A stretch of 64,000 nt of DNA from an uncultured candidate division WWE3 bacterium (GCA_903879985.1 CAIRNR010000007.1:585925-649924); one strand, 5' to 3'. Counted from the first letter of the stretch, positions 1 through 33,096 are shown. Program-made: numbers and translations. The notes: generated by a model from the letters alone, not told the origin.

Positions 1-8
1 CTTTTAAA

Positions 9-38: not shown

Positions 39-182
39 TTAAACCTAGCCTAAACCCTTGTGGTTACGGCCTTATTAACGTGGTTTACCTCGGCAAGATT
101 TTTACATTTTCCGTGGAACTCTTGAGCAAAAGAGTAGGGGAAAATCCTTGCTGTCTTTGGTTACCTGCGTAGTTTACTATAT

Positions 183-3100
183 TTATTCGACGTTTACAAT
201 CCACCAGTCGAATTTGACGTCTGTATCAACACTGTTGTCGACTGAGACTGTAAATGATGTGCCTTCGTTCTTTTGGCTTACTACAAGCATTTGACCATTT
301 GTTGTGCTTGTAGCTGTTACGAATACCTTAGAATCGGTTTTTATTAGTGAGCTGTTTATTGTTACGGCCTTGTCGCCTGTATTAATTTGAGCACTTCCAA
401 TTGAGTCATTACCGTTGGTATTGTGTTTAACCTTGTATTGCTCAGCAGCTACGACCTTTGCATTGATAGTTCCGTTTGGTTCAAGAACGATCTTTCCGTT
501 AAACATATCAACATTTCCAGCCATTTTACTTTGTAAGTAGAGTGTCTGGCTTTCGCATAGGGCTTTATTGGTGATATCGGTTGATTCACTGTAGCAGGAA
601 GCACCGAGTACGTTTATGGCGTTAGCTATGGTATCGATCTTGATAGAACCGGCCATTAAGTTGCCTGTGATCTTTACGTCAGCGAATGTTGCGTTGCCCA
701 TGACACTTAGATCACTTGTTACTCTTAATACATCGTTGCCATTTTCATCTTTTATGGTTGTCATACCAAGGGTTCCAATAGTGTCTTTAAAGTCAGCAAT
801 GGCCTTGGTAATAGTATCCAATATGGTATTGGAAGCTTTAGCTGAGCTACTTGATTGACTTGTTTCACTTGTTTCGGAGGATTGGCTAGATTCGTCAGTT
901 AATCCAAGTTCTCTGGCAAGTTCAGCATTGGCTGCATTTTGACTATCAACCTTAGCATTAAGTTCTTGCATGGCTTTTACTAAGTAAACTTGTAAGGCTG
1001 ATAGGTTGGTATCAAGGTATTCGGTACCTTTGATAGTGGTTTTACCAACCATATCTGGGAATACTTTTTGTAAATCCTGAGCAATAAAGCCTGTTATGGT
1101 TCTGGCTCTTGTTTTATCGTCATAACCAGATAGGGCATTGTAGTTAAAGGTTGATGGCTGTAATTGCATGATCTTATCAAGGTATCCACCACTTAAGTAG
1201 CTAATGTTTTCTTTTAATCTACTATCTGAGTAGTTTGTAAATGCGGTGAAACCGTTGGCTGCTGGTTGGCCGTTAACAGTTAATGTGTAGTTTGGATTTG
1301 TTGTACCGATTCCGACGTTTCCATTTAGGAGTGTTTCAACAATGCTGGTGTTACCTAGTATTACTTGGTTATCTTTGGTTGTAGATACGCCGTTACCTAT
1401 ACCGATTGAATTCATTGCGTCGACTTTCTGATTACCCATAAACCCGGCATAACCAATAAATATATTGTTTTCTCCTGTAGTTATTGCTGCGCCCGCGTTC
1501 ATTCCGATAGCGGTGTTATATGCACCATCTGTTAGTGAGTTAAGTGTACTTTCACCTATTGCTACGTTGCCACTGCTATTAACCATATTCTCTAAAGCGT
1601 TTATACCTAATGCGGTATTGTATGCGCCAGTGGTTGTTGAAAGCATCGCGTTTAGACCAATTGCTGTGTTGTTGTAACCGTTTGTAACAGCAGCAAGTGA
1701 GTATTTACCTAGGGCTAAGTTACTTTCACCTGTTGTTGTGTGAGAACCTGCATCTACACCAATGTACATATTGTTTTTGGCGGCAGTAGAGGAGCGGATT
1801 TCAAAGTTTAGGGCGCCTGTACTGTCGATAACACTTACAAGAGCGTTGTATTTTCTGCTAATGATGTGTTTGACAGAGATATTTGAAATAGTACCGTCGT
1901 AATCACTGGTTGGTGTGAATACCAATGGTTTAGTGTTATCGGTTACAGTTATATCTGCTATAAAATTGCTGTTGTAGGAATATGGACTGTCTGCTGAAGT
2001 GGTTCCACCCAAGGATAAACTCACATCGCCATTGGTTCTACCTGTTGTTGAGAATTTAACAATATATGATTCACCGTTTGTGAGTGGCAAATTGTTAAAT
2101 ACTGTAAATGTGCCTTCACCAGCTGTATGTGTGAAACCGTCGTTATAGTTTCCTGTCCAGTCGGAAGCCATTGTCCAGTTAGCAGAACTTGTGGATTCGC
2201 TGCCTAATGGCAATACTGAAATGCCCGAAATAGTTCCGTCGAAATCGGCTGTTGGAGTAAATGTTAATGGCTCGTCGTAGTCATATGAAGTTAGTATCAC
2301 GGAGTAGGAGTTGTCGGTTGAATAACTTCCTGATGGCGCATCTTGCATGTCTAATACCACAGAACCTGCAGTTTGATCTGCAATCGTAAAGGAGACCAAA
2401 TAAGATAGTCCTGAGTCAGTTGCAACTGTTCTGGATAATGTAAATGTACTACCTGCGGCATGTATGAATCCATCAGTAAAGTTTCCGGACCAATCTGATT
2501 CAGTTGACCATAATGTGTCATTAGTTAGGTTGGCACTTAATGTTTTTACTGAAATAGCTGAAATAGTACCGTCAAAGTCGTCGGTTGGTGTGAATATTAA
2601 AGGACCCTTATCTTCTGTAGCTTTGACGACGTAGCTAATTGAATCAGTTAGTGTCCCTGATGTTTGTCCACCCAAGCCAACGGTGAATGAACCTGCTGTG
2701 CGACCTGTGACTATGAAGGATACTAGGTATGATTCATCGATTGTTGTACCTACAGGTCTTGATATTGTATCTGTGCCATCACCAGCGGCATGTATAAATC
2801 CATCATTAAAGTTTCCATCCCAACTTGAACCAACTGTCCAAGCGTATTCATCCAAATTTTCACTTCCCACAATGCGGACATTAATAGCTGTTATTGTGCC
2901 GTTAAAGTCATCTGTTGGTGTGAATATTAGTGGGCCGTTTTTTACTGATGCTGTAAGTGTTGCAGTTCCGGTACCAGAGTATCCTGCAGCTGTTTCGCCC
3001 CCAAGCCCTATAGAATATGTTCCTGCTGTTGCACCTGCAACGGTTACATCAATTCTGTAGACATTTCCTACGTCTATCGACATTTCTTTTGATAGTGCAA

Positions 3101-21100: not shown

Positions 21101-24100
21101 TTGAAAGGTAGCCGGAGTTTCCAGAACCTCCAATGGCTCCTCCGCTGCCTGTACCTACACAGTTTCCTGACGAATCACAGACTTTGTAGCCGTCTTGATA
21201 AATTGTTGTAGCACCCATATCTCCGTTAACAGATAAGTTTCTTGATGGAGCTGTTGTACCGATGCCAAGTTTGTTTCCCGCGTTATCCCAGAATAAATTA
21301 CTGGATCCAATAACGTTGTTAAGTCCATTCCAGAATGTTAGTTGACCAGCAACACCAGAACCTGAAACGTTACCAGTGCCTGCACCAATTCCTGTAACTG
21401 CTGTGCATTTCCAAGCAGAATTTACACTATCCCAAGCTAATACTTGATTAGAAGAACAACCGCCGAGCATTCTTAAGCCACCTGCTGTTATTTCTAAACC
21501 TGAGTTAGAAGATGTTGATGAGGTAGTACCAGTTGAGGAAAGTGCGATTTCAATATTGTTTGCGTTAGCTGTGATACCGGAACCTCCAACTACGTCTATT
21601 GTTAATGATCCGTTTGAGCCACCGCCGATTAAGCCATTTCCGGCTGCTACTGCTGTAGTAACGTGACTTGATGCATTGTTAGTATCTAGTAAGGTTCCTG
21701 TGCGGCCTGTTAATAAGTTGATTTCAGTGGTTGATGCTGTAGCACCAGAAAGTTTGTTAAGTTCTGTTGCTGTAGCGATAACCTGTGAACCACCGATAAA
21801 TAAGTTTGTACTATTAATAGAACCTGCGACATCCATTTGGTAGGCTGGAGCAGTTGTACCGATACCTAATTTTCCTGTGGCGTTATTCCAGAATAAGTTA
21901 TTGTTTCCAATTACAGTATTTAAACCATTCCAAAATGTTAATTGACCAGATACGCCAGACCCCGAAACGTTACCAGTACCGGCACCAATACCTGTGACTG
22001 AATTACATTTCCATGTGGAGTTACCACTATCCCAAGATAAGACTTGGTTAGAAGAGCAACCGCCCAAAAGTTTAAGTCCGTTAGCGGTAAGTTCCATACC
22101 TGAATTACTTGATGTTGTAGCAGTTGTACCTGATGTGGCAAGTATAAGATCAATGTTATCGGCGTTAACTGAAATACCAGAACCTGCGCCGATGTTTAAT
22201 GTTACTGATCCGTTTGATCCGCCGCCCAGTAAGCCATTGCCTGCAGCAACTGCTGTTGTTGCGTAGTTTGCAATATTATTAGTATCAACTAAAGTTCCTG
22301 TTCGACCTGTTAATAAGTTGATTTCTGTTGTAGAAGCGGTAGCTCCTGAGAGTTTGTTTAATTCGTTAGCAGTTGCAATAACTTGTGTGCCACCAATGAA
22401 GATATTAGTTGCATTGATAGATCCTGCTACATCTACCTGATAACCTGGGTTGGTTGTACCGATACCAAGTTTACTTGCGGTGTTGTTCCAGAAGAGGTTA
22501 CTTGAACCGATAACAGAGTTTAAACCATTCCAGAAAGTTAGTTGTCCTGCAACGCCAGAGCCTGAAACGTTACCAGTACCGGCGCCAATGCCTGTGACTG
22601 AGTTACATTTCCATGCTGAGTTAACGCTATCCCATGAAAGTACTTGGTTAGAAGAGCATCCGCCTAACATTCTAAGTCCGCCTGCGGTTAGTTCTAAACC
22701 AGAATTAGAGGATGTACTTGTAGATGTACCGGTGGAAGATAATCTAATCTCAAGGTTATCTGCGTTGGCCGTAATACCAGAACCTCCGGCTACATTAATA
22801 GTTAATGATCCGTTTGAGCCACCGCCGATAAGTCCGTTACCTGCCGCCACTGCTGTGGTTGTGTAGTTAGCTGCGTTGTTTGTATCTAATAGAGTACCTG
22901 TTCTTCCGGTTAAGAGATTAATTTCTGTGGTAGAAGCAGTAGCTCCTGAGAGTTTATTTAATTCTGCGGAAGTTGCCAAAACTTGAGTTCCCGCCAAAAA
23001 CAGGTTGGTCATGTTTGCGGAACCTGAGACATCTAATTGGTAAGAAGGAGCAGTTGTACCGATACCAAGTTTTCCAGTTGCATTGTTCCAGAACAAGTTG
23101 TTTGATCCTATTACATTGTTAATGCCATTCCAGAAAGTTACTTGGCCTGCAACGCCAGAACCTGAAACATTACCTGTACCCGCGCCAATGCCGGTAACAG
23201 AGTTGCATTTCCATGTAGAGTTAACACTATCCCAAGATAAGACTTGGTTGGATGAACAACCTCCGATGAGTTTAACGCCACCTGATGTGATTTCCATACC
23301 TGAGTTAGATGATGTTGTAGAGGTTGTACCTGATGTGGCTAAAGCTAATTCAATGTTGTCGGCGTTAACGGTGATGCCAGAACCTGCACCAATGTTCATT
23401 GTTAGTGAACCATTTGAACCACCACCTGTTAAACCATTACCTGCTGATACTCCTGTTGTTGCGTAGGTTGCGACATTAGCTGTATCTAAAAGTGTTCCTG
23501 TGCGACCTGTTAGTAAGTTAATTTCTGTAGTAGAAGCAGTAGCACCTGAAAGTTTGTTAAGTTCTGTGGCAGTTGCTATAACTCTTGTGCCACCGATAAA
23601 CAGGTTTGTACTATTAATAGAGCCGGCTACATCTAATTGATATGCTGGAGCAGTTGTACCGATACCAAGTTTTCCAGTTGCATTGTTCCAGAACAAACTG
23701 TCAGAACCGATAACGTTGTTGATACCATTCCAAAAAGTTAATTGACCACTAACACCTGAACCTGAAACATTACCAGTTCCTGCACCGATACCTGTAACAG
23801 CTGTGCATTTCCATGTTGCGGTACTACTGTTCCATGCCAAAACTTGATTTGTTAAACAGCCACCAAGTAATCTAACACCACCGGCGGTAAGTTCCAAACC
23901 TGAGTTGGAGGATGTTGCGGAAGTTGTGCCAGAGGATGACAAATTAATTTCAATATTATCTGCGTTTGCCGTAATGCCTGAACCAGAGCCAATGTTAACG
24001 GTTAGCACTCCGTTAGTACCACCACCTGTTAAGCCATTACCTGCTGTTACTCCTGTGGTGGAGTAGGTAGCAACGTTTGCTGTATCAAGTAAGGTTCCAG

Positions 24101-26681
24101 TTCTTCCTGTTAATAAGTTAATTTCTGTCGTTGAAGCAGTAGCCCCGGAAAGTTTGTTAAGTTCTGTGGCAGTAGCTGCAACTCTTGTTCCGGAAATGAA
24201 CAAGTTTGTCATATTAGCAGAACCGGCTACGTCAAATTGATAACCTGGGTTTGTGGTACCAATACCTAATTTACCTGTGGCATTATTCCAGAATAAATTG
24301 TTTGAACCTATGACAGTGTTTAATCCATTCCAGAAAGTAAGTTGTCCGGATGCGCCAGAACCTGACACATTGCCAGTACCTGCACCTATGCCAGTTACTG
24401 AATTACATTTCCATGCACCTGCTACGCTGTCCCATGATAGTACTTGATTAGATGTACAACCGCCTAACAAGCGAACGCCATCTGCTGTTAATTCCATGCC
24501 AGATACGGATGATGTTACTGAAGTTGTGCCAGTTGTAGCCAACTTTAGATCAATTGTGTCGGCGCTTGCTGTTATTCCAGAACCGGCCCCAATATTAATA
24601 GTTAATGATCCGTTTGAGCCACCGCCAATTAAACCGTTACCTGCTGTTACTGCGGTTGTGGCATAGTTGCTAACGTTCGAATTGTCTAAAAGTGTGCCAG
24701 ATCTACCATGAGTTAAACTAAGTTCTGTTGCTGTTGCATTTACTTGAGATCCGCTTATATATAATAGAGTAGTGTTAGTTGCTCCGTTGACATCTAAAGC
24801 AAATAAAGATGTTGGCACTCCGATACCTAATCTTCCGTATGTACCATCCCAATATAATCCACTAGCGCCCTTTACTGTTGTTGATGTGTCAAACATTGTC
24901 AATTGTCCCGCTACACCAGATCCTGTGATTGAAGTTGTACCAACTCCTGCGACAACTGTGCATTTCCAAACTGCATTTGCGGCATCCCATGACAAAACTT
25001 GATTATCGCCGCATCCGCCAATGATACGAACTCCGTCGTTTGCAACTTCTAAACCTGAGTTACTGGATGTAGTTGCTGAAACTCCCATGGTTAGTGCATC
25101 AATTGTTAAACTGTCACCTAATGGCGTAATACCTGGACCCGCTCCGATGTCTATATTAATAGCTCCGTATGAACCACCGCCGATTAAACCAAGTCCTGCG
25201 GTAACGGATGTAATAGCATGTGAGCCAATATTATTTGTAGTAATAATTGTTCCAGTAGCACCGTCTAGTAAATTAATTTCAGAAGCATTAGCTGTGACTT
25301 CTGTGCCGGATATAAATAGAGTGGTGGTGTTGGTTGAACCTGCTACATCTAAATCGTACATAGGAGTATGTGTGTGCACACCAATCTTACCATTTGTTGT
25401 TATTATCATTCTTTCTGTGTTGTTAGTTTTTAAAACTAAGGATTGATTATCTGTTGTTCCTAAGAAATCTACATTTGAATCTGTGCCAACGTTACCTGTT
25501 GTAACCCAAGATAATTTGGACAACAAAGAAGTTCCTGTTACCCAACTTGGTGAACTACCTGTAGACATCAATAAAGCCCCTGGGGCTGTTGAGATTGGTA
25601 AGGTGGTTAATGTTCCGGATCCGTTGGCATAAATCATGTCACCGGCTGTGTATGAAGTTATTCCTGTGCCTCCGTATCCTTGTTCTATTGTTTGACCTTG
25701 CCATGTACCATTTGTAATTGTGCCAACTTGTGTGATTTGTGTTTGAGGTACTGTTTGAATCGATCCGCCTTGTACCATTAATATGTCAGAATTTGTGGCA
25801 GTCATTTTTCCAATGTTAACGCCACCTAGTTTAGATACTTTAGTATGGAGTAAATCTATTCCTGTAACATCTCCTGCTGTGTGTAATGAAGTTTCTAATG
25901 TGTTCTTAGTTACGGCGTCGATACTAAGTAAGTTTTGCATTGTTCCTGCACCATTGAATGTTAAGTTTCCTGTGGTAACGGTTGTTGTTAATACGCCACC
26001 ATTTAAAGTTGAAAGTCCTTCTACTGTTAATCCTTCAGCTACATTTACGGTTTTCTTAAAATAGGAAGGAACGTTTGTATTAAAGACATAGTTTGTCACT
26101 TTATCTTGCGCAGCTAATACGGCAGCCATTGCAAATTTTTGTTCGTTTGTTGCTTGTGCATTTGCAGCTAGTACAGCTTGTCTATTTTGTTTTACAGTTT
26201 CTATTAAACTACTTACAAGTTTTTGAGAATTTTTATTTGTGCCCGCAAGTAGCAAAGTTGTGATGATAAATGCTATTACTAAATACTTGCCATTTGTTTT
26301 AGTTAAGGAAAATTTGGAACCATTACTTAAGTTAACTTTTCTGTTTTCAGGTACTTCGTTAATAATAGGAGTAGTTTCTTTTTGGGTGGATACTGGAGTA
26401 CTGCAACCCTGTAGTAATCTTTGTCTGTACATCTCTTTTAAGTTATCTTTTTTACATTTCTTTTGTTCGTCAACTAATTTTTTTAATTCGTTGATTTGTT
26501 CAACCCTATAGGCGCGGTGATTGTTGTCTAATCTTTCTGATGTAATTTTACCCTCAGACTCAAGTCTTCTTAATGATGATGGGGAAATTCCAAGGATATT
26601 AGATGCATCTAATACTTTGACATAATTTTTCTGTGTAAGGACGTATTTGTTTGTATTATTATCTTGGGCAGAGGCTTTCAT
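183..26681 (-). CDS. Giant (8,832 aa) modular cell-surface protein with tail-fibre-like repeats, 18-residue beta-helix repeats, beta-sandwich repeat arrays and a C-terminal intramolecular-chaperone (peptidase S74-like) domain; N-terminal MerR/excisionase-type HTH and signal-anchor TM helix
   Basis: Single uninterrupted ORF in the six-frame track. Internal repeats are visible in the translation: 'LFWNNATGKLGIGTTAPAYQLDVAGS...' about every 200 aa, 'NTAIGxxALxxNTTGxx' 18-mers, '...TPT.DFDGTISNISVK' about every 100-120 aa, and 'YSDSRLKENISYL' near the C-terminus. A hydrophobic helix 'YLVIAFIITTLLLAGT' lies at about aa 135-150. Confidence 0.85.
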   Translation of the reverse strand: MKASAQDNNTNKYVLTQKNYVKVLDASNILGISPSSLRRLESEGKITSERLDNNHRAYRVEQINELKKLVDEQKKCKKDNLKEMYRQRLLQGCSTPVSTQKETTPIINEVPENRKVNLSNGSKFSLTKTNGKYLVIAFIITTLLLAGTNKNSQKLVSSLIETVKQNRQAVLAANAQATNEQKFAMAAVLAAQDKVTNYVFNTNVPSYFKKTVNVAEGLTVEGLSTLNGGVLTTTVTTGNLTFNGAGTMQNLLSIDAVTKNTLETSLHTAGDVTGIDLLHTKVSKLGGVNIGKMTATNSDILMVQGGSIQTVPQTQITQVGTITNGTWQGQTIEQGYGGTGITSYTAGDMIYANGSGTLTTLPISTAPGALLMSTGSSPSWVTGTSLLSKLSWVTTGNVGTDSNVDFLGTTDNQSLVLKTNNTERMIITTNGKIGVHTHTPMYDLDVAGSTNTTTLFISGTEVTANASEINLLDGATGTIITTNNIGSHAITSVTAGLGLIGGGSYGAINIDIGAGPGITPLGDSLTIDALTMGVSATTSSNSGLEVANDGVRIIGGCGDNQVLSWDAANAVWKCTVVAGVGTTSITGSGVAGQLTMFDTSTTVKGASGLYWDGTYGRLGIGVPTSLFALDVNGATNTTLLYISGSQVNATATELSLTHGRSGTLLDNSNVSNYATTAVTAGNGLIGGGSNGSLTINIGAGSGITASADTIDLKLATTGTTSVTSSVSGMELTADGVRLLGGCTSNQVLSWDSVAGAWKCNSVTGIGAGTGNVSGSGASGQLTFWNGLNTVIGSNNLFWNNATGKLGIGTTNPGYQFDVAGSANMTNLFISGTRVAATATELNKLSGATASTTEINLLTGRTGTLLDTANVATYSTTGVTAGNGLTGGGTNGVLTVNIGSGSGITANADNIEINLSSSGTTSATSSNSGLELTAGGVRLLGGCLTNQVLAWNSSTATWKCTAVTGIGAGTGNVSGSGVSGQLTFWNGINNVIGSDSLFWNNATGKLGIGTTAPAYQLDVAGSINSTNLFIGGTRVIATATELNKLSGATASTTEINLLTGRTGTLLDTANVATYATTGVSAGNGLTGGGSNGSLTMNIGAGSGITVNADNIELALATSGTTSTTSSNSGMEITSGGVKLIGGCSSNQVLSWDSVNSTWKCNSVTGIGAGTGNVSGSGVAGQVTFWNGINNVIGSNNLFWNNATGKLGIGTTAPSYQLDVSGSANMTNLFLAGTQVLATSAELNKLSGATASTTEINLLTGRTGTLLDTNNAANYTTTAVAAGNGLIGGGSNGSLTINVAGGSGITANADNLEIRLSSTGTSTSTSSNSGLELTAGGLRMLGGCSSNQVLSWDSVNSAWKCNSVTGIGAGTGNVSGSGVAGQLTFWNGLNSVIGSSNLFWNNTASKLGIGTTNPGYQVDVAGSINATNIFIGGTQVIATANELNKLSGATASTTEINLLTGRTGTLVDTNNIANYATTAVAAGNGLLGGGSNGSVTLNIGAGSGISVNADNIDLILATSGTTATTSSNSGMELTANGLKLLGGCSSNQVLSWDSGNSTWKCNSVTGIGAGTGNVSGSGVSGQLTFWNGLNTVIGNNNLFWNNATGKLGIGTTAPAYQMDVAGSINSTNLFIGGSQVIATATELNKLSGATASTTEINLLTGRTGTLLDTNNASSHVTTAVAAGNGLIGGGSNGSLTIDVVGGSGITANANNIEIALSSTGTTSSTSSNSGLEITAGGLRMLGGCSSNQVLAWDSVNSAWKCTAVTGIGAGTGNVSGSGVAGQLTFWNGLNNVIGSSNLFWDNAGNKLGIGTTAPSRNLSVNGDMGATTIYQDGYKVCDSSGNCVGTGSGGAIGGSGNSGYLSMFNGSYTIKNSTLFQSGSNVGIGTTNPGYQLEVAGSANMSTLFIGGSAVTANATELSLTKGRSGTLLDTNNVNSYATTAVAAGNGLLGGGSNGSVTLNIGGGSGITVSADGIDLALSTTGTTSATSSNSGMELTAGGLRLLGGCSVNQVLAWDNVSSTWKCSTVTGIGGVVSGSGVAGQVAFWNGLNATTGSNNFFWNNSTGKLGIGTTAPAYQLDVAGSINSTNLFIGGSQVIATAAELNKLSGATASTTEINLLTGRTGTLLDTNNASNHVTTAVAAGNGLIGGGSNGALTIDVVGGSGITANANNIEINLTSTGTTSVTSSNSGMELTASGLRLLGGCSSNQVLSWDSVNSTWKCNSVTGIGAGTGNVSGSGVAGQLTFWNGLNTVIGSNSLFWNNATGKLGIGTTAPTYQLDVAGSINSTNLFIGGTQVIATATELNKLSGATASTTEINLLTGRTGTLMDSNNVANYTTTAVTAGNGLIGGGSNGSLTINVVGGSGITANANNIEIALSSTGATSSASSNSGLEITAGGLRMLGGCSVNQVLSWDNVSSTWKCSTVTGISGVMSGSGVAGQVAFWNGLNSTTGSNNLFWNNSTGKLGIGTSSPSSVLTAKGNMDTSILSITNSADISAGIGLSGVENNYGMEFFVNGSSVGKWSNNGGLNIGTAAAYEEGNGIANGLLVQGKVGIGTTNPGYQLEVAGSANMSTLFIGGSAVTASAAELSLTKGRSGTLLDTNNVASYATTGVAAGNGLTGGGSVGSLTLNVVGGSGITVNADNIELALATSGTTSTTSSNSGMELTSGGVKLIGGCSSNQVLSWDSSAAAWKCSSVTGIGAGTGNVSGSGVSGQLTFWNGLNSVIGSSNLFWNNSTGKLGIGTTAPAYQLDVAGSINSTNLFIGGTQVLATATELNKLSGATASTTEINLLTGRTGTLLDSNNATNYVTTAVTAGNGVIGGGSNGALSINVVGGSGITANADNIEINLSSTGATTATSSNSGLELTAGGVRMLGGCSSNQVLAWDNVSATWKCSTVTGIGGVVSGSGAVGQLTFWNGVNSVIGNNNLFWNNASGKLGIGTTAPAYQLDVAGSINSTNLFIGGTQVIATANELNKLSGATASTTEINLLTGRTGTLLDTNNATNYVTTAVTAGSGLLGGGSNGSLTMNIGAGSGITVNSDNIDIAITNSGNTAVTSSNSGLELTANGLRMIGGCSNNQILSWDNVNAAWKCNSVTGIGAGTGNVSGSGVAGQLTFWDGLNSVTGSNSLFWNNATGKLGIGTTNPAYQFEVAGSINSTNLFIGGSQVIATATELNKLSGATASTSEINLLTGRSGSLIDTNNLGMYATTSVIAGNGLIGGGSNGAVTLNIGAGSGITISADDITIDAITAGATASTSGNSGLEVAADGLRLLGGCGNNQVLAWDLGASLWRCTSVAGVDGSVSGSGVNGQLTFWNGLSTITSSNNLYWNNATAKLGIGTTAPAYQLDVAGSANFTNFFIGGAQVVATATELNLLSGRSGTLMDSNNIGNYATTAVTAGSGLIGGGSNGSFSMAIGAGSGISVNASNIDVKLATSGTTSTTSSNSGMELTADGLKLLGGCSASQILIWDAINSVWKCDTVTGISGVVSGSGIAGQVLFWNDTYSTTGSKNLFYDKNTSSLGIGTSTPSANLDVAGTTWLKGGSNPGGLFVNASGNVGIGTTNPTSKLTLASTADIESATPVLGDELVNENNWTLSSGWTGDYATGFAHTTGNTTLSRTMSVSSGVSYQVSFTVAGRTSGSFDVELGGHTTTGFTGSDNFTMTATADNGALIFKPTNDFNGTISNISVKSIGADLIDDTGWTEQPGWTGSVYSYFTHTIGLTNPLTFTVPTSAGSSYEFYINPQSRSAGSITVSLGSESHTFTTEGYYTFTASADNMSLVLTPTADYDGHTYLSFKYVGTTELTSADNWSIVSAGTAPAAGWSWDGNYNDGFTHNVGSTQTLEATTTVVQGNNYDLDIDSYDVTAGSFTVTLGDQTQTCENDTECILTFTASGNNLPLVITPTADFDGSYVDLYSLTLNGAGTNLLNFSTWTGVPTFNGWTYDGDSGFIHSTGNTITLSNPTSVVSGNSYSIEVGSWTATGGSYTVSLGGVTHTCSNNTNCTLEFAATVSNTPLVITPTSDFDGDVWAYNLKLKGPQLATDASWTLGTGWSGNFTDGFTHTANVRSISRPITLPAGNGTYLVQYTVTGRTQGYFRIYIGDTGGYNVSSTGSDLIATSGSDNQNIVIVPSANFDGTISDISVKRVLDPQYIDSVTMGSEWHTAFGSDYIYQHTYEGGTDVLTGNTSVTSGADYLLRFDVFNETHGSVTETFGGQTSGSITGGWGSLMQEVTADGDNIPLVFTPSNDFDGSVQHMSIRQIVDTNLVDDTNWTATSSWSGNYTDGFTHTLDSTDYMLTEALGVTSGNTYEITMSATGSSQIQLPTTLGDSTDIVYPRGGYPNQVNELTAKADNAPLHISSDDTFVGTITGISVRQTSANDMLNYATWSTPADTTTWTGNYNDGLTHVTGNTDALSFGVPSYTAGQLFRVAITVANRTNGAFDVNFGGDDFNFWHDSQTASFQPGIDNGRLVLTPTSDFNGTFTNVSVKDYGPQLLNDTNWVATPSWTGNYNDGFQRVVGNAPLSRPAATLSGTTYRIDAIVNNLSLGDFSLGLGNQRTEGIQGSTYRMLTANTDNAPITIVPSANVNGLIRDIHLVPLSTEITDSNDWTEDAGWTGNYNDGFTHEVGNTNTISRTMSVDQGQNYKTSFTVTGRTAGSFTVTLGGVTSSSINNTNTLNTVIETQDGPLVFTPTSDFDGTISNISVKPITGTYGPLVTIIDSTGAVAFELRSTLAAQENIFMGKNSGSHNTTGALNVALGTNALDFNTTGRYNTGIGAYALQDNTTGEQNTAIGLSALRYNTTGTSNVAIGMQALYSNKSGHKNIAIGGMALFSNTTGSYNTATGDGALYSNTTGTDNTATGTSTLYNNTTGYNNVAMGNLALFENTVGKENIAIGDNSMRYNTSGSENVALGTSTLYSNTTGYNNLAVGTRALFSNTTGNENTALGTTALYYNTSGNGNVATGTSALYYNTTGIDNTATGTRALFNNTTGSYNIATGVNALYNNTTGYDNIGIGNASLNENRDGYLNLAMGDSALHNNTNGHENIALGTEALRMNSEGSYNTAIGTYALHENNGTYNIAIGDGAMYSNTLGNNNVAIGVEALRQNQEGYNNVAIGFSALHENNSGILNTAVGTSAMRSNTTGIANTALGAETLRQNQEGNNNTAIGYDALHENNYGSLNTAIGSSAMRANTLGSNNTALGVNALRSNQESSWNTAIGSDALQNDNGGGYNVAVGSSALFANTTGEYNTAIGVDALISNTTASWNTAVGHRALALNTVGIQNVAVGQNALANNTIGEYGTAIGVDALLSNTTGSWNTAVGNYALSLNTVGTQNVAIGHNALQNNTIGDLGTAVGTNALSSNTTGSWNTAIGGNSLAYNTTGTRNVAVGNDALGSNTIGDLNTAIGAEALSSNTIGSWNTAIGNYSLANNTTGVINVAIGNQTLQGNTTGEANVAVGNRALVSNTTGSWNTAIGSESLATNTTGVNNVAIGQAALFINSTGERNVAVGNRALVSNTTGGWNTALGEQTLATNSTGFANVAVGQAALFLNTEGVRNVAVGNNALGSNTIGSWNTALGWLSLGSNTTGAENVAVGAHTMLQNTGGGRNTAIGNGSMESNTLGSYDTAIGYRSLASNTLGSENVAIGDMTLANNIEGIRNVAIGNGTLQNTTASFNTAIGYMALNANTTGELNIAIGNGSMVNNTTGNHNTAVGINALSSNLEGWNNVALGESALQNNVAAENTAIGNWALMNNTTAVHNTALGYGALSTNQTSTENTAVGWKALNANTGEFNTAIGSGALMSNTTSGKNTALGTSALAVNTTGWENTALGFGALSTNTVNYYNTAVGSYALNNNTGGKNTAIGTSALVNNSGGWENVAVGYQASYANTTGYYNTTVGAGALSANTTGTYNVAMGNGAAASLNGVGNVVVGSAGALLVTSGTNNTFVGNWTGSNPLQAHDVNNSMALGSGAFTTRNNQIVIGNTDIEQTLLNGNVGIGTTNPVSKLSLASTVALEHAPVLGPELVDANNWTKESGWTGDYNTGFSHYAGTFTLSRPVTVYERIDYRVSFTVTDRTAGSFIISLGGKTSGEFTDSGSFDLNANDNSAPLVFTPTNDFNGKITNISVKTVGVGPELTNGSNWSSQTGWTGNYNDGFTHTAGDTVALTSNSMTLTSGSDYLVIFDVRNRTAGSFTVKLADSAYSTEQTANNAVSLNVTATSGALIITPTSDFDGTIYYIYVRKVGNQLLSDQFWVLGSAWNGNFNDGFTHNPGEGTDLSRRLDEAIGNTALVTVNVTNRTQGTVYTDYSGQVTGLLRGSDGWTASGFDVFTASSDSAPIIFRPSGDFDGTITTSAISLGANLLQQSAWGLSGWTGNYATGFTHVAGITDSISRPLTLTAGTAYLTTVTVTGRTAGSFDVSVGGATYEGMGWTGTSYGVFTPANDNEPLIITPSSDFNGTISNISVKAVGAGSELTNSANWNKDSGWTGNWTNGWTHVHGTKALSRPMTLASGGNYFVHVVASGTTTGSFTVTLSGATSAAQTGENIMYLTTTEDNSPLVITPTDDFNGKIEGISVKELGDEMTTGATWNMDSGWTGDFNTGFTHIAGMKYNAPLTRPTSAVTGTAYMLSATVTDRTAGSFDVSVAGNGTGGMGWTGTNSGIFTAYYDNGPVIIAPTGDFDGTISNISVIELGPELLDENDWSEVAGWSGNYNDGFTHTTGTTTSLYLPTSVVSGDTYQLQIENLSISAGSFTVSMGGQSVNINNDNHWPLITLTPTQNNENIVITPTQDSDAYIFLDFLSQVGAELTGADNWTVEAGWNGNYADGFTHYSGEGTNTVSRPMVIDSSSDYNVAVTITGRTHGQVDVSLAGDSNLFASSSYITINNLDTNGPLILTPTDDFDGTVKISVRQTGNRSFLPGNDWTQQQNWTGNYASGFTHVTGSTADLTKPTSAAADTEYYVSYTVTGRTAGSFTVDLGDDYINTVEGSGTIVLNPYNNDALLKITPTADFDGTISNISVRLKGSDMVDENDWTSDSGWSGDNSTGFVHAGNTNVMTMPMTVTQYDKYLVAATITGRTAGSFGIVFAGNPFWFWHDSQTATFEALVEDGPFEIHPDADFNGLMKFSIKHLGAELVDTNDWTAETPWTGDYNAGFTHTPGTEVYTLSRNMDITAGNSYKTTFTVSGRTQGSFTIGLGGTTSGSFTDTNTYVNTATTTGPLIITPTADFDGTISAISTLPVGSELTDSSSWVEASDWSGTYATGFTHTAGEGTMTVYRDMNSINAANAYIISFTITGRTAGSFTIGLGGTTSSSYIETGSIELTTVSNNGRLIFTPTNDFDGKISNISVKHIDSRTYAAIFSISDSTNAVNFEIRSTIAAMNNTFIGVGAGAAYTGGDNNIAVGNHALGSNTTGNRNSAFGSYALIMNTGGEQNTALGLSALYSNTVGSQNTAVGGYALNSNTTGNLNNAFGDYALFSNTTASYNSAFGLNALYHNTTGENNNAFGDYALTANTTGYDNVAFGKEALAANTTGIANVAVGNGALWSNLTGERNTAIGTSALSNNTTAWENVAIGTYSLLSNTTGGQNVAIGAFALNNNISGFSNVAIGKEALFYNVSGGSNTAIGNQALYQNTDGSWNVGIGLNALSNNKGSRNTSIGVHSAEGISSGESNTFIGAYVATNALQKLDVQNSIAIGDNTFTTADNQVVLGNDSISTTLLKGNVGIGTTNPTTKLAFASTEDLEHAPILGAEMTDATGWTKESGWTGNYNTGFAHSSGTFTLSRPMTVATTNTYRVSFTVTDRTAGSVNVTLGDHVTSGITDTTVFNTTIDTDNAPLIFTPTTNFNGTISNISVRLVGADLVDENGWVMQSGWTGNYNTGFAHSSGTFALSKEMSIDVGNVYRIDVTVAGATAGTYSIGLGGETAAGYSGTGTATLTASVKNGPLIFTPTDDFNGTITAINVRIVGSENLDEYAWTVGSSWDGNFNDGFIHAAGDGTDTISRPVGTTIDESYLVSFIVTGRTAGSFTVGLGGQTSGTLTDSISYVVKATEDKGPLIFTPTDDFDGTISAISVKTLSANLTNDTLWSTESDWSGNFTDGFIHAAGSTFTLSRTVATDSGLSYLVSFTIADQTAGSVVLDMQDAPSGSYSTDNSYSVILTSYDYDEPLTFTPTADFDGTISGISVLPLGSESTSSANWTMASDWTGNYNDGFTHTAGEGTFTVFNNLPLTNGESYIVKFSTTGRTNGDVSLSLGGTTSADSPYSYNSNFIADITVTDNTKPLVFTPTSDYDGTISNISVKHIISRKYNALVSVIDSTGALNFEIRSSTAAKNNMYIGVDAGSHTTTGESNLALGKYSLAAVTNGYNNTAIGLNAMLSTTTGAYNTALGINALENMVNSSGNVAIGESTLNSLTDGAYNTAIGMNAGAAITTGENNIFIGYAGFMGNQKVDAMNSIGIGNGVSTTKDNQVILGNTSIVETLLNGNVGIGTTNPNYTLTVNGQPAANGFTAFTNYSDSRLKENISYLSGGYLDKIMQLQPSTFNYNALSGYDDKTRARTITGFIAQDLQKVFPDMVGKTTIKGTEYLDTNLSALQVYLVKAMQELNAKVDSQNAANAELARELGLTDESSQSSETSETSQSSSSAKASNTILDTITKAIADFKDTIGTLGMTTIKDENGNDVLRVTSDLSVMGNATFADVKITGNLMAGSIKIDTIANAINVLGASCYSESTDITNKALCESQTLYLQSKMAGNVDMFNGKIVLEPNGTINAKVVAAEQYKVKHNTNGNDSIGSAQINTGDKAVTINSSLIKTDSKVFVTATSTTNGQMLVVSQKNEGTSFTVSVDNSVDTDVKFDWWIVNVE
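950..1260 (-). other. Intramolecular chaperone / auto-proteolytic domain (peptidase S74-like, as at the C-termini of phage tail fibres and endosialidases); Ser-Lys dyad motif S-D-S-R-L-K encoded at 1212..1229
   Basis: Translation '...FTNYSDSRLKENISYLSGGYLDKIMQLQPSTFNYNALSGYDDKTRARTITGFIAQDLQKVFPDMV...LSALQVYLVKAMQELNAKVD' matches the hallmark 'sDxRLKxnI' signature of this family. Confidence 0.6.
1280..1800 (-). repeat. Third short NxAxG 18-mer block ending in 'DNQVILGNTSIVETLLNGNVGIGTTNPNYTLTV' (module 3 junction)
   Basis: Translation 'FEIRSSTAAKNNMYIGVDAGSHTTTGESNLALGKYSLAAVTNGYNNTAIGLNAMLSTTTGAYNTALG...'. Confidence 0.55.
1800..3560 (-). repeat. Beta-sandwich-like domain array (module 3, about 6 copies)
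   Basis: Recurring 'GW.TESGWTGNYNTGFAHSSGTFTLSR...RTAGS..V.LGG...PL(I/V)FTPT.DFDGTIS.ISV' units. Confidence 0.5.
3600..4640 (-). repeat. Second, shorter 18-residue NxAxG beta-helix repeat block (module 2)
   Basis: 'AVNFEIRSTIAAMNNTFIGVGAGAAYTGGDNNIAVGNHALGSNTTGNRNSAFGSYALIMNTGGEQNTALG...' ending in '...DNQVVLGNDSISTTLLKGNVGIGTTNPTTKLAFAS'. Confidence 0.55.
4640..8700 (-). repeat. Beta-sandwich-like domain array (module 2, roughly 12-15 copies), preceded by a 'NQIVIGNTDIEQTLLNGNVGIGTTNPVSKLSLAS' junction
   Basis: Same '...TPT.DFDGTISNISVK' periodic motif; boundaries approximate. Confidence 0.5.
8870..12540 (-). repeat. Long block (about 1,200 aa) of 18-residue 'N(T/V)A(I/V)G.xAL.xNTTG.x' repeats; predicted parallel beta-helix/fibre shaft (module 1)
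   Basis: Strict 18-aa (54-nt) periodicity in the translation (e.g. 'YNTAIGAYALQDNTTGEQNTAIGLSALRYNTTGTSNVAIGMQALYSN...'). Mirrored by periodic 'ccaatagc.gtatt' in the DNA. Confidence 0.6.
12540..16020 (-). repeat. Beta-sandwich-like ~100-120-aa domain array (module 1), about 10 copies, each ending '...(I/V)TPT.DF(D/N)GTIS(N/D)ISVK'
   Basis: Recurring pattern 'W(T/S)...GW(T/S)GNY.DGF(T/A)H..G.T..LSR......G..Y...F.V.GRT.GSF.V.LGG...' in the translation; boundaries approximate. Confidence 0.55.
16100..25000 (-). repeat. About 15 tandem, highly similar ~600-nt (200-aa) coding repeats of the tail-fibre-like unit (...KLGIGTTAPAYQLDVAGSINSTNLFIGG...ELNKLSGATASTTEINLLTGRTGTLLD...GGCSSNQVLSWDS...WKC..VTGIGAGTGNVSGSG..GQLTFWNG)
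   Basis: The repeat period is visible at nucleotide level (e.g. '...gatgaacaagttggttgagttgata...' in 17814-17845 and '...aatgaacaagttggttgagttgatag...' in 18407-18438, about 590 nt apart). Near-identical plus-strand shadow ORFs recur (17269..17685, 20476..20880, 22450..22866, 23083..23466). Boundaries are approximate. Confidence 0.7.
26480..26630 (-). other. MerR/excisionase-type helix-turn-helix segment at the extreme N-terminus of the giant ORF (aa ~20-65), about 70 aa upstream of the signal-anchor helix
   Basis: Translation 'YVKVLDASNILGISPSSLRRLESEGKITSERLDNNHRAYRVEQINELKKL', resembling the MerR N-terminal HTH ('...RAYRVEQINEL' vs 'R.Y...di..L'). Confidence 0.45.
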
Positions 26682-26955: not shown

Positions 26956-27807
<852 letters not shown>

Positions 27808-27816
27808 ATTTATTAT

Positions 27817-28605: not shown

Positions 28606-28609
28606 TTGT

Positions 28610-30590: not shown

Positions 30591-33096
<2,506 letters not shown>

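What the first reader, a model, noticed from the sequence alone, without database searches (positions are those of the whole stretch)
183..26681. 8,832-aa single-ORF giant surface protein built from phage tail-fibre-like parts
One uninterrupted 26.5-kb reading frame occupies 41% of the window. Its parts, in order, are a signal-anchor helix, about 15 tail-fibre-like 200-aa repeats ('KLGIGTTAPAYQLDVAGS...'), three successive modules of [beta-sandwich array]-[18-mer NxAxG beta-helix]-['NQ.V.GNT....LL.GNVGIGTTNP' junction], and a terminal intramolecular-chaperone domain. The 'GIGTTNP' junctions, NxAxG shaft repeats and 'SDxRLKxNI' chaperone are hallmarks of phage tail fibres, tailspikes and endosialidases, yet here they are fused into a chromosomal, membrane-anchored protein encoded next to core genes. 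In a reduced-genome bacterium a 26 kb cell-surface fibre is a plausible host-attachment organelle for an episymbiont, or a co-opted phage receptor-binding structure. It appears undescribed as such.
Basis: partly seen in the sequence, partly recalled or inferred. Interest (0 to 1): 0.85.

Follow-up and report, generated by a model that had tools for sequence, protein, structure and literature searches.

The report
Giant phage-fibre-like surface protein
A tiny, probably host-dependent freshwater bacterium (candidate division WWE3) spends about 4% of its genome on one real 8,832-residue membrane-anchored protein, assembled from phage tail-fibre parts and 27 sugar-binding-like modules, that most likely forms a long cell-surface fibre for sticking to other cells.

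Summary
An uninterrupted 8,832-aa ORF lies on the minus strand at 183-26681, and three other assemblies call the same product length. Its repeats are too diverged at DNA level to be an assembly artefact.

- The N-terminus carries a conserved MerR-type DNA-binding domain (residues 25-68) before the single membrane helix.
- The shaft repeat period is 17 residues, not 18.
- The S74 chaperone domain is not terminal. A Ser/Thr-rich linker and a conserved ~210-aa end domain follow it.

Phage similarity is real for the shafts, the GIGTT junctions and the S74 domain. It is not real for the 200-aa repeats as a whole.

The gene belongs to a large Patescibacteria family that databases label "MerR family transcriptional regulator". 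In seven of nine related loci it sits head-to-head with the ATP-synthase operon. The closest described relatives are the Bdellovibrio MAT adhesive fibres.

My best reading is an N-terminally anchored, probably trimeric adhesion fibre. Trimerisation, self-cleavage and sugar binding are inferred, not shown. The cytoplasmic DNA-binding domain is unexplained. I rate it a new variant of a known kind.

The parts
183..26681 (-). Whole gene: 8,832 codons plus stop.
   Evidence: ORF list and translation. The same product length is called in three other assemblies.
26283..26681 (-). Cytoplasmic N-terminal region, residues 1-133. It holds the MerR-type winged HTH (residues 25-68, nt 26478-26609) and a Lys-rich stretch.
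   Evidence: Pfam MerR scores 31.9 bits against a cut-off of 28.2, and MerR_1 scores 25 against 21.6. The region is conserved in P0001 and P0002 and in all nine loci L004-L012. It is also present in 36 of the 150 best cluster representatives.
26232..26282 (-). Single membrane helix (signal anchor), about residues 134-150.
   Evidence: This is the strongest hydrophobic segment of the whole protein. Nearly all MerR-bearing relatives have a hydrophobic segment at residues ~100-270.
25398..26114 (-). 'Head' region, residues 190-428, including the GYGGTG...SPSW motif.
   Evidence: It is the most widely shared part of the family, found in 91 of 150 representatives. phrog_30390 matches at E 3.4e-10. 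There is no Pfam hit. A strain variant shows 36 synonymous against 7 non-synonymous codon changes, clustered at residues ~222-453 (head and start of the first repeat).
16158..25397 (-). Array of 15 repeats of ~200 aa, residues 429-3508, arranged 7+3+5. Two spacers interrupt it at residues 1801-1874 and 2457-2543. Each repeat starts with KLGIGTTxPxYxLDV and carries a Cys-x16-Cys pair.
   Evidence: HMM domain table and motif spacing. Pairwise identity is 45-90% for protein and 55-82% for DNA. No Pfam or PDB relative was found. The repeat occurs in WWE3 and other Patescibacteria homologues. The AlphaFold monomer model is unusable, pLDDT 48.
12588..15950 (-). CBM-like jelly-roll array 1: 10 units of ~110 aa, residues 3578-4698.
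   Evidence: HMM domains and alignment A2.
8802..12524 (-). Shaft 1: about 73 copies of a 17-residue NxAxG repeat, residues ~4720-5960.
   Evidence: The period is 17 in 51 of 63 spacings. phrog_4636 'tail spike protein' matches at E 1e-138. tblastn finds 36-44% identity over 400 aa to tail fibres of Pelagibacter, Roseobacter and cyanobacterial phages and to structural proteins of SPO1-like phages.
8667..8801 (-). Junction 1, NQIVIGN...LLNGNVGIGTTNP, residues 5961-6005.
   Evidence: Motif list. It has the same sequence pattern as the segment that precedes the S74 domain.
4695..8666 (-). CBM-like jelly-roll array 2: 12 units, residues 6006-7329.
3510..4649 (-). Shaft 2 (17-residue repeats, residues ~7345-7680) plus junction 2 (residues 7681-7724).
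1857..3509 (-). CBM-like jelly-roll array 3: 5 units, residues 7725-8275.
1230..1784 (-). Shaft 3 (residues ~8300-8440) plus junction 3 (residues 8441-8484).
   Evidence: PHROG tail-fibre families match here.
897..1229 (-). Peptidase_S74 intramolecular chaperone / self-cleavage domain, residues 8485-~8595. The Ser8485-Lys8490 dyad sits in SDSRLK.
   Evidence: Pfam PF13884 matches at E 4.6e-16, 59.3 bits against a cut-off of 22. Alignment to the MYRF ICA domain 7dc3 places Ser8485 and Lys8490 on the two SDxxxK motif positions of MYRF (the Ser position reads Ala in the deposited chain). tblastn hits phage distal tail fibres.
186..896 (-). Ser/Thr/Glu-rich linker (residues 8596-8623) and a conserved C-terminal domain (residues 8624-8832) ending FDWWIVNVE.
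   Evidence: The domain lies at or within ~30 residues of the C-terminus of at least 13 family members, with or without S74. The last 70 aa weakly resemble Pfam K1-lyase_C at E 1.5e-4, below the cut-off. There is no PDB or phage match.
26682..26800 (-). Conserved promoter-like element and 5' leader. The leader holds a 32-nt inverted repeat, TTATTA-N20-TAGTAA, at 26693-26724, which ends 11 nt before the ATG.
   Evidence: Upstream alignment. The identical 32-nt spacing occurs in six loci. All nine metagenome matches to the pattern precede a MerR-N-terminus ORF. The outer stem is 95.5% paired, and three pairs change on both sides.

Best explanation
This is one real gene of a candidate division WWE3 (Katanobacteria, Patescibacteria) bacterium. 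It encodes a ~903-kDa protein that most likely forms a very long cell-surface fibre.

**Proposed layout**
- The first ~130 residues, a MerR-type DNA-binding domain, stay in the cytoplasm.
- One helix anchors the chain in the membrane.
- About 8,300 residues are exported.

**Proposed mechanism, by analogy with phage tail fibres and Bdellovibrio MAT fibres**
- Three chains are brought together and folded from the C-terminal end by the S74 chaperone domain.
- That domain then cuts itself off at Ser8485.
- The cut releases a cassette made of the S74 domain, the linker and the conserved end domain.
- The mature fibre is built from the 15 GIGTT-headed repeats followed by three modules. Each module is an array of CBM-like jelly-roll units plus a 17-residue-repeat shaft.
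- The 27 CBM-like units and the exposed tip would bind surface glycans of a host or partner cell. Many copies would give multivalent attachment.

**Shown:** the ORF, its domain order, the phage homology of the shafts, junctions and S74 domain, the CBM fold, family-wide conservation of both termini, the conserved gene neighbourhood, and purifying selection.

**Inferred:** topology, trimer formation, self-cleavage, surface display, glycan binding, and host attachment.
For: **The gene is real**
- ORF and translation.
- Identical product length in independent assemblies.
- The repeats are diverged at DNA level, and protein identity generally exceeds DNA identity among the closer copies.
- A strain variant shows 36 synonymous against 7 non-synonymous codon changes.

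**Phage-fibre homology**
- S74 domain above the Pfam cut-off, with the Ser-Lys dyad aligned to MYRF.
- Shafts match phage tail fibres and spikes.
- The C-terminal region matches phage distal fibres.

**Sugar-binding-like modules**
- Similar modules occur in uncultured phage proteins, one annotated with an S74 domain.

**Family conservation**
- 167 cluster representatives score E <= 1e-30; their lengths reach 7,185 aa.
- 36 of the best 150 start with the MerR domain.
- Complete relatives P0046 (7,185 aa) and P0059 (6,147 aa) share the MerR start, membrane helix and end domain; P0046 also shows the S74-linker cassette, and in P0084 (2,204 aa) all but the helix were detected.
- The gene is transcribed divergently from the ATP-synthase operon in L004-L008, L010 and L012.

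**Precedent**
- Bdellovibrio MAT fibres are S74-bearing, surface-displayed and glycan-binding (PMC10769870).
- Large CPR surface proteins have been proposed for host contact (PMC13059738).
Against: - No expression, localisation or cleavage data exist for this protein.
- The 200-aa repeat could not be modelled (pLDDT 48). Its oligomeric state is therefore unknown.
- The CBM-like units belong to no sequence-defined CBM family, and no ligand site was identified.
- The S74 domain is followed by a conserved domain, which is unusual. If that domain has a role on the mature fibre, cleavage would remove it.
- The hydrophobic core of the membrane helix is short, about 16 residues.
- Nothing in this model explains the conserved cytoplasmic DNA-binding domain.
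- No WWE3 bacterium has been cultured, so no host is known.
Confidence: 0.62

Rival explanations
1. Membrane-tethered regulator or contact sensor. On this reading the protein's main role is signalling. The fibre senses contact or tension outside the cell. The MerR domain is then released, for example by intramembrane proteolysis, or it changes its DNA binding. It would control its own gene, the neighbouring ATP-synthase operon, or other genes. This could also coexist with adhesion.
For: - The MerR HTH scores above the Pfam cut-off and is conserved at the extreme N-terminus across the family.
- A conserved 32-nt inverted repeat lies between the promoter-like element and the ATG of this gene family, and only there.
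- The head-to-head arrangement with the ATP-synthase operon is conserved.
- An M50-type intramembrane protease gene lies 8 kb away at 35111-35719.
- MYRF shows that an S74-bearing membrane protein can be a transcription factor (PMC8326128).
Against: - The S74 domain is on the opposite side of the membrane, about 8,300 residues from the HTH. Its cleavage cannot free the HTH as it does in MYRF.
- There is no MerR-type dimerisation helix or effector domain.
- The promoter-like site has a 17-nt spacer, not the 19-20 nt typical of MerR targets.
- The arms of the repeat are 26 nt apart centre to centre. That spacing and the covariation fit an RNA hairpin at least as well as an operator.
- M50 proteases are near-universal, so its proximity may be chance.
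- A sensor does not need 27 CBM-like units or 8,300 extracellular residues.
Confidence: 0.15
2. Structural envelope or matrix fibre rather than a host adhesin. The protein would form a coat, a spacer or a biofilm-matrix fibre that shapes the cell surface or binds environmental polysaccharide particles. It would have no specific partner cell.
For: - The CBM fold is typical of proteins that bind plant, algal or microbial polysaccharides.
- Both termini are conserved across the family, rather than the tips being diversified.
- The flanking genes are housekeeping genes — ribosomal-protein genes and the ATP-synthase operon.
Against: - The middle of the protein varies strongly between relatives. No sandwich units were found in the first ~3,700-3,980 residues of L007 and L010. 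That pattern fits partner-specific adaptation.
- Phage-fibre modules and S74 domains are used for receptor recognition in every characterised case.
Confidence: 0.15
3. A phage or prophage tail-fibre gene that merely lies in the chromosome.
For: The shafts, junctions and S74 domain show strong similarity to phage tail fibres.
Against: - No other phage genes are nearby. The flanks are the L10 leader and the ATP-synthase operon.
- The same position is kept in divergent WWE3 and other Patescibacteria genomes.
- The N-terminal HTH and membrane anchor are foreign to virion fibres.
- The 200-aa repeats and sandwich units are absent from GenBank phages, and the repeats are absent from IMG/VR.
- GC content is close to that of the rest of the window: 0.40-0.44 against 0.34-0.41.
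Confidence: 0.03
4. Assembly chimera or a fusion of several genes.
For: - The gene is highly repetitive.
- Many homologues end at contig edges.
- One related contig, L026, diverges abruptly from its twin, L027, inside the gene.
Against: - The 8,832-aa length is reproduced in three other assemblies, and two more contigs are collinear.
- The longest exact repeat word is 37 nt.
- Relatives P0046 and P0059, on contigs of 994 kb and 36 kb, share both termini.
Confidence: 0.03

Closest known systems
Bdellovibrio bacteriovorus MAT (mosaic adhesive trimer) fibres (Caulton et al. 2024, PMC10769870)
   Same: - A chromosomal bacterial protein built from phage tail-fibre-type beta-helical segments.
- Both families have S74 and non-S74 subfamilies.
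- The S74 domain carries an SDxxxK motif.
- The VGIG/N..P...L motif shared with MYRF is present.
- MAT fibres are surface displayed with the C-terminus pointing outward, and one member binds prey glycans.
- Both occur in a bacterium that lives on other bacteria.
   Different: - MAT proteins are ~600-1,000 aa. This one is 8,832 aa.
- MAT proteins have a signal peptide and a conserved ~130-aa beta-rich N-terminal domain. This protein has a cytoplasmic MerR HTH and a membrane helix.
- MAT tips are diversified and the N-terminus is conserved. Here both termini are conserved and the middle varies.
- This protein adds 15 novel 200-aa repeats, 27 CBM-like units and a domain after S74.
- Sequence membership in the MAT family was not tested.
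Phage tail fibres and tailspikes with a C-terminal intramolecular chaperone (endosialidase K1F, T5 pb1; Pfam Peptidase_S74)
   Same: - The S74 domain has the Ser-Lys dyad.
- The preceding junction motif is shared.
- The NxAxG shaft repeats are 36-44% identical to fibres of Pelagibacter, Roseobacter and cyanobacterial phages and to structural proteins of SPO1-like phages.
   Different: - This protein is not part of a virion.
- It is anchored in a cell membrane by its N-terminus.
- It holds three shaft modules in series with only one chaperone.
- The chaperone is followed by a linker and a further conserved domain.
Large surface proteins of CPR/Patescibacteria proposed for host contact (Vampirococcus lugosii, PMC8080830; Absconditicoccaceae, PMC13059738)
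   Same: - A very large, membrane-targeted protein with adhesion-type modules.
- It occurs in an ultrasmall bacterium with a reduced genome.
   Different: - Those proteins carry fibronectin III, integrin, concanavalin A and similar domains.
- None is reported with phage-fibre shafts, an S74 domain or an N-terminal HTH.
- They come from a different class of Patescibacteria.
MYRF (myelin regulatory factor), a membrane-bound transcription factor with an S74/ICA domain
   Same: One polypeptide combines a DNA-binding domain, a membrane helix and an S74 domain. The S74 region aligns, including the motif Ser/Lys positions.
   Different: [quoted passage not shown] Its cleavage therefore releases the factor.
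- Here the ICA domain is extracellular and distal.
- The DNA-binding folds are unrelated: Ndt80-type in MYRF against MerR-type here.
RodZ-type bitopic proteins (cytoplasmic HTH, one membrane helix, extracytoplasmic domain)
   Same: The order is the same: HTH, then a single membrane helix, then an outside domain. From my own knowledge, the RodZ HTH serves as a protein-binding module for MreB rather than a regulator. That shows an anchored HTH need not act in transcription.
   Different: The HTH class differs (Xre-type in RodZ). There is no sequence relation, and this comparison was not tested here.

Membership tests
Peptidase_S74 / intramolecular chaperone auto-cleaving (ICA) domain proteins | Match to Pfam PF13884 above the curated cut-off | tested here: met
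   59.3 bits against a cut-off of 22, E 4.6e-16, residues 8485-8545.
Peptidase_S74 / intramolecular chaperone auto-cleaving (ICA) domain proteins | Catalytic Ser-Lys dyad in an S-D-x-x-x-K motif | tested here: met
   The SDSRLK motif has Ser8485 and Lys8490. They align with the Ser (Ala in chain 7dc3) and Lys positions of the MYRF SDxxxK motif.
Peptidase_S74 / intramolecular chaperone auto-cleaving (ICA) domain proteins | Domain at the extreme C-terminus, released as a small fragment | tested here: not met
   About 240 further residues follow: the linker and a conserved domain. The released fragment would be 348 aa.
Peptidase_S74 / intramolecular chaperone auto-cleaving (ICA) domain proteins | Trimerisation-dependent self-cleavage | not testable with these tools
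   This needs recombinant protein with S8485A and K8490A mutants.
Bdellovibrio MAT fibre superfamily | Phage-fibre-like beta-helical body ending in S74 or an alternative tip | tested here: met
   The shafts and S74 domain match phage fibres. Family members lacking S74 also exist.
Bdellovibrio MAT fibre superfamily | N-terminal signal peptide followed by the conserved ~130-aa beta-rich MAT domain | tested here: not met
   The N-terminus is a MerR HTH followed by one membrane helix. I did not compare the head region with MAT sequences, because none were available to me.
Bdellovibrio MAT fibre superfamily | Surface display and glycan binding | not testable with these tools
   Experimental only.
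MerR family transcriptional regulators | N-terminal winged HTH (PF00376 / PF13411) above the cut-off | tested here: met
   31.9 bits against 28.2, and 25 against 21.6.
MerR family transcriptional regulators | Long dimerisation helix and C-terminal effector-binding region; soluble protein | tested here: not met
   The HTH is followed by a Lys-rich stretch, a membrane helix and 8,680 further residues. The database label 'MerR family transcriptional regulator' on relatives reflects only this domain.
MerR family transcriptional regulators | Operator inside a promoter with a 19-20 nt spacer | tested here: inconclusive
   The promoter-like site has a 17-nt spacer. The conserved inverted repeat lies downstream of it. 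No binding data exist.
MYRF-type membrane-tethered transcription factors | [quoted passage not shown] | tested here: not met
   The order here is HTH, membrane helix, ~8,300 residues, then ICA.
Carbohydrate-binding modules (beta-jelly-roll type, e.g. CBM4/6/16/35/36/61) | Jelly-roll beta-sandwich fold | tested here: met
Carbohydrate-binding modules (beta-jelly-roll type, e.g. CBM4/6/16/35/36/61) | Sequence membership in a defined CBM family | tested here: not met
   There is no Pfam hit above a cut-off. The PDB profile search gave no hit below E 0.3. The 5.8-billion-protein search found no relative.
Carbohydrate-binding modules (beta-jelly-roll type, e.g. CBM4/6/16/35/36/61) | Demonstrated carbohydrate binding | not testable with these tools
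   This needs glycan arrays or binding assays.

The most novel reading that the evidence does not exclude
The conserved cytoplasmic MerR-type domain may couple a half-micrometre-scale extracellular fibre directly to DNA or to gene control.

Two versions are possible:
- It acts as a contact- or tension-responsive membrane-tethered regulator. Its target would be the conserved 32-nt inverted repeat in its own leader, or the divergent ATP-synthase operon.
- It is a physical tether between the fibre base and the chromosome.

Either version would be a new way for an ultrasmall, host-dependent bacterium to link attachment to its physiology. The architecture is widespread in Patescibacteria and is hidden in databases under the label 'MerR family transcriptional regulator'.
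Probability: 0.18. Interest if true: 0.85.

Novelty: new variant of a known kind. Interest (0 to 1): 0.62.

Why it matters
How Patescibacteria (CPR) find and hold on to partner cells is largely unknown beyond type IV pili.

- **Scale of investment.** This gene takes about 3.7% of a ~0.7-Mb genome. It belongs to a family with at least 167 diverged cluster representatives, up to 7,185 aa long.
- **Concrete candidates.** The family offers candidate attachment organelles for WWE3 and related lineages. It has defined parts that can be expressed and tested: the S74 cassette, the CBM-like units and the HTH.
- **Reuse of phage modules.** The reuse of phage receptor-binding architecture seen in Bdellovibrio extends to the CPR at about ten times the size.
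- **Annotation error.** Proteins of thousands of residues are systematically labelled MerR regulators.
- **Host clues.** If the CBM-like units bind defined glycans, they could help identify the unknown hosts of WWE3.

Tried and rejected
**Searches that failed or found nothing**
A 4,700-aa query timed out.
- Word-indexed searches with residues 1-1010 and 1-430 gave only 14 hits each, mostly short motif matches. The sandwich profile gave none.
- PDB sequence and profile searches found nothing significant for the sandwich unit, the 200-aa repeat, the shaft or the end domain.
- The IMG/VR scan with the repeat profile found nothing. The sandwich alignment was too variable to scan with.
- The metagenome scan with the N-terminal alignment found nothing.
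- The afdb50 fold library was unavailable.

**Models that were unusable**
- The AlphaFold monomer model of the 200-aa repeat had pLDDT 48, so I did not use it for fold search.

**Ideas I rejected**
- Prophage origin: the neighbouring genes are core genes and the position is conserved.
- Assembly artefact: the length is reproduced and the repeats are diverged.
- Polymorphic toxin: the C-terminal domain is conserved, not variable.
- Trimeric autotransporter: there is no beta-barrel anchor, and YadA_head appeared only as a weak hit in an unrelated protein.
- MYRF-like release by S74: the domain is on the wrong side of the membrane.

**Not used as evidence**
- L026 ends the ORF at 770 aa, but it diverges abruptly from its twin L027. 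I read that as a likely misassembly.
Full report
**1. Is it there?**

The window contains one ORF of 8,832 codons on the minus strand, 183..26681, with an ATG start and no internal stop. The product is about 903 kDa with pI 4.4. Thr, Gly, Ser and Asn make up 48% of its residues.

Four lines of evidence show it is not an assembly artefact.
- A neighbouring gene's exact product occurs on many contigs. On three of them, from other assemblies (ENA ERZ18629311, NCBI GCA_903994745.1, ENA ERZ1426827), the adjacent gene was called at exactly 8,832 aa. Two JGI contigs carry 6,911- and 6,910-aa fragments cut by the contig end.
- The retrieved DNA is 99.1-100% identical to the window over 14-21 kb; all four contigs cover the gene's 5' 8.9 kb.
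- The internal 200-aa repeats are 45-90% identical as protein but only 55-82% as DNA. No exact word longer than 37 nt is shared between copies.
- One strain variant differs at 44 positions, all within 25323-26016. They amount to 36 synonymous and 7 non-synonymous codon changes, so the frame is under purifying selection.

**2. Organism and neighbourhood**

The window's NusG falls in a 90%-identity cluster whose named members are almost all candidate division WWE3 / Katanobacteria. The source contig is 715,186 bp. The gene therefore takes about 3.7% of a very small genome.

On the minus strand the order is secE-nusG-rplK-rplA. The ATP-synthase genes follow on the plus strand at 26986-33100. Then comes the giant gene on the minus strand. 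The ribosomal protein L10 leader (Rfam RF00557, 51.3 bits against a cut-off of 44) starts 5 nt after its stop codon. No phage genes are present.

**3. Anatomy, N to C**

Coordinates are in the parts list.

(a) *Cytoplasmic start.* Residues 25-68 are a MerR-type winged helix-turn-helix, above the Pfam cut-offs. A Lys-rich stretch follows.

(b) *Membrane helix.* Residues ~133-150 are the most hydrophobic segment of the protein.

(c) *Head.* Residues 190-428 have no Pfam family. This region is the most widely shared part of the family.

(d) *The 200-aa repeats.* There are fifteen, arranged 7+3+5. Each starts with KLGIGTTxPxYxLDV and carries a conserved Cys-x16-Cys pair.

(e) *Three homologous modules.* Each is an array of ~110-aa units (10, 12 and 5 units), a conserved transition (DSTGAxxFEIRS), a shaft of 17-residue NxAxG repeats, and a junction NQ.V.GN....LL.GNVGIGTTNP. 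The shafts hold about 73, 20 and 8 repeats by length.

(f) *S74 domain.* It follows the third junction. Its SDSRLK motif supplies Ser8485 and Lys8490, which align with the two SDxxxK motif positions of MYRF (chain 7dc3 reads Ala at the Ser position).

(g) *Linker and end domain.* A Ser/Thr/Glu-rich linker leads to a ~210-aa domain ending FDWWIVNVE.

**4. What the parts are**

*Shafts.* They are clearly of the phage-fibre kind. phrog_4636 'tail spike protein' matches at E 1e-138. tblastn finds 36-44% identity over 400 residues to tail fibres and structural proteins of Methylophilales, Pelagibacter, Roseobacter, cyanobacterial and SPO1-like phages.

*Junction and S74 region.* It hits phage distal tail fibres.

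Predicted viral structures with the same fold occur in uncultured tailed-phage proteins at TM 0.73-0.81 and 24-28% identity. By sequence the unit is an orphan: no Pfam family, no PDB relative, no GenBank phage hit, and no hit in the 5.8-billion-protein search.

*The 200-aa repeat.* It also has no family. Only its first ~47 residues hit a single phage 'tail fiber'. IMG/VR gave nothing. The monomer model is unusable, which would fit an obligate oligomer but proves nothing.

**5. It is a family**

A profile of the N-terminal 700 residues was scored against 1.84 billion cluster representatives. It found 167 proteins at E <= 1e-30 and 2,789 at E <= 1e-10, many of them very long: 7,185, 6,147, 5,875 and 5,474 aa.

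Of the best 150, 36 begin with the MerR segment within the first ~20 residues. Nearly all of those examined have a hydrophobic helix at residues ~100-270.

P0046 (7,185 aa, on a 994-kb contig), P0059 (6,147 aa) and P0084 (2,204 aa) share both ends with the window protein. All three start with the MerR segment and end with the FDWWI-type domain; P0046 and P0084 also show the S74 domain and the Ser/Thr-rich linker. A membrane helix was detected in P0046 and P0059 but not in P0084. Other members keep the linker and end domain but have a different, unassigned domain in place of S74.

NCBI names several members 'MerR family DNA-binding transcriptional regulator [candidate division WWE3 bacterium]'. 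Two paralogues lie in one 864-kb genome.

The scan of species-representative genomes returned nine related loci. Four are in WWE3 MAGs, two in MAGs labelled Patescibacteria group, one in a MAG labelled Saccharibacteria and two in MAGs labelled Gammaproteobacteria. In seven of the nine the gene is transcribed divergently from the ATP-synthase operon, as it is here. Most ORFs run off the contig or the fetched flank, at >=3,980 and >=3,699 aa in L007 and L010.

The 200-aa repeat is present in most of these homologues. The sandwich units were not seen in the parts available.

**6. How it most likely works**

With no N-terminal signal peptide and a folded, basic 130-residue start, the single helix should act as a signal anchor. 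The HTH would stay inside and ~8,680 residues would be exported. This is an inference from established topology rules.

In every characterised case the S74 domain nucleates trimer folding of the preceding beta-helix and then cleaves at its Ser. Examples are the endosialidase, T5 pb1, MYRF and Bdellovibrio Bd3182 (PMC10769870 and PMC8326128). The dyad and the preceding VGIG..P...L motif are intact here.

I therefore infer a trimeric fibre that folds from its C-terminus and sheds a 348-residue cassette of S74, linker and end domain. The end domain is conserved across members whose middle parts differ. That fits an assembly role better than a receptor-binding tip, but it is open.

The 27 CBM-fold units, presented three-fold if the fibre is a trimer, are the natural candidates for multivalent glycan binding. 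Scaling from the ~550-Å model of the ~920-aa Bd3182 gives a length of roughly 0.3-0.5 µm. That is a rough estimate only.

**7. The unexplained part**

The cytoplasmic MerR domain is conserved, yet adhesion alone does not require it.

A second conserved feature may or may not be linked to it. Upstream of the ATG is a promoter-like CCTTGAC-17-TAxxxT element, followed by a 32-nt inverted repeat, TTAYTA-N20-TARTAA. The repeat ends 11 nt before the ATG. It has identical spacing in the window and in L004-L007 and L010.

A pattern built on this repeat found nine metagenome sites, and all nine precede a MerR-N-terminus ORF. The 8-bp outer stem is 95.5% paired, and three of its pairs change on both sides. 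The covariation score is 0.279 against 0.146 in shuffles and <=0.08 when the partners are slid.

That pattern fits a 5' RNA hairpin, for example one that stabilises a 26-kb mRNA or controls translation. It also fits a palindromic operator. The data cannot separate the two.

S74 cleavage cannot release the HTH, because it acts on the far side of the membrane. A MYRF-like mechanism is therefore excluded.

**8. Comparison with what is known**

The nearest described system is the Bdellovibrio MAT fibre family. It shares the building logic, the S74 and non-S74 split, surface display and glycan binding. It differs in size (about ten-fold smaller), in its N-terminal anchoring module and in which end varies.

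Large surface proteins of CPR bacteria have already been proposed as host-contact factors, but with different domains. A 2026 review of the phylum attributes attachment to type IV pili and mentions no such fibres. No paper in the library pairs Peptidase_S74 with CPR terms. The giant-gene survey of Omnitrophota describes unrelated architectures.

**9. Verdict**

I rate the finding a new variant of a known kind: phage-fibre-like bacterial adhesins, and giant CPR surface proteins. Four features are distinctive and undescribed:
- the conserved cytoplasmic HTH;
- the three serial modules with 27 orphan CBM-fold units;
- the domain that follows S74;
- the conserved leader and the conserved position next to the ATP-synthase operon.

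All functional steps remain inferences.

Noticed in passing
window 26693-26724 (minus strand), with promoter-like element at 26733-26761; also L004:9886-9917, L005:9958-9989, L006:9957-9988, L007:9928-9959, L010:9943-9974: A conserved 32-nt inverted repeat, TTAYTA-N20-TARTAA, sits in the 5' leader of the giant gene and ends 11 nt before the ATG. All nine metagenome matches to the pattern precede a homologous MerR-N-terminus ORF. The 8-bp stem shows changes on both sides at three pairs. Whether it is an RNA hairpin or a DNA operator is unresolved.
   Followed up: partly
window 26986-27807 (+): The first gene divergent from the giant gene encodes a signal or membrane segment plus an extracytoplasmic domain. 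That domain is 38% identical over 63 aa (pairwise E 9e-7) to the domain standing in place of S74 in family members P0127 and P0050. Two membrane helices follow, with an ATP-synthase c-subunit-like 'EALGRNP' loop but no acidic residue in the last helix.
   Followed up: partly
window 26986-29098 (+): The three ORFs ahead of atpA (273, 262 and 162 aa) have no Pfam or NCBIfam match. One looks like a b subunit, with a membrane helix and a long coiled coil. No recognisable a subunit was seen in the operon. Several neighbours score below NCBIfam cut-offs, as expected for a divergent lineage.
   Followed up: partly
window 3-185 (minus strand): The L10 leader (RF00557) begins 5 nt after the giant gene's stop codon, with no terminator-like hairpin between them. 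Transcription of the 26.5-kb gene could therefore read into rplJ/rplL. The giant gene and the atp operon sit between rplA and rplJ, which are usually adjacent.
   Followed up: partly
window 25323-26016: All 44 differences between the window and strain variant L014 within the compared 8.9 kb of the gene fall in this 700-nt tract, which covers the head region and the start of the first repeat. That suggests a recombination patch from a related strain.
   Followed up: partly
window 186-896 (minus strand); P0046, P0059, P0079, P0084, P0133 and others: A Ser/Thr/Glu-rich linker plus a ~210-aa domain ending FDWWI(V/I)N closes many family members, and S74 is found in only some of them. The last 70 aa repeatedly give sub-threshold hits to Pfam K1-lyase_C. 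The domain has no solved or named relative.
   Followed up: partly
P0084 and P0133 (NCBI MBD3366536.1 and MBD3365732.1), P0047, P0134: Family members of 2,204-3,894 aa are annotated in NCBI as 'MerR family (DNA-binding) transcriptional regulator'. The label rests on the first ~70 residues only. Two paralogues lie in one 864-kb WWE3 genome.
   Followed up: yes
window 35111-35719 (+): A 202-aa M50-type intramembrane metalloprotease gene lies about 8 kb from the giant gene. It would matter only if the HTH were released by intramembrane proteolysis. Such proteases are near-universal.
   Followed up: no
L011 and L012 (contigs CAZIVL010000002.1, CAZEJU010000007.1): Two MAGs labelled 'Gammaproteobacteria' carry MerR-HTH fibre homologues. 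L012 has the same divergent atp-operon arrangement as the Patescibacteria loci. The taxonomic labels may be wrong.
   Followed up: no
L026 versus L027: Two metagenome contigs with identical gene starts diverge abruptly 2,284 nt into the gene, and L026 then hits a stop. This is probably a misassembly at the repeats. It shows why most homologues are seen only as fragments.
   Followed up: partly
window 43652-44025 (minus strand): A cluster of four tRNA genes (Trp-CCA, Thr-GGT, Tyr-GTA, Thr-TGT) lies on the minus strand some 9 kb upstream of the secE-nusG-rplK-rplA block.
   Followed up: no
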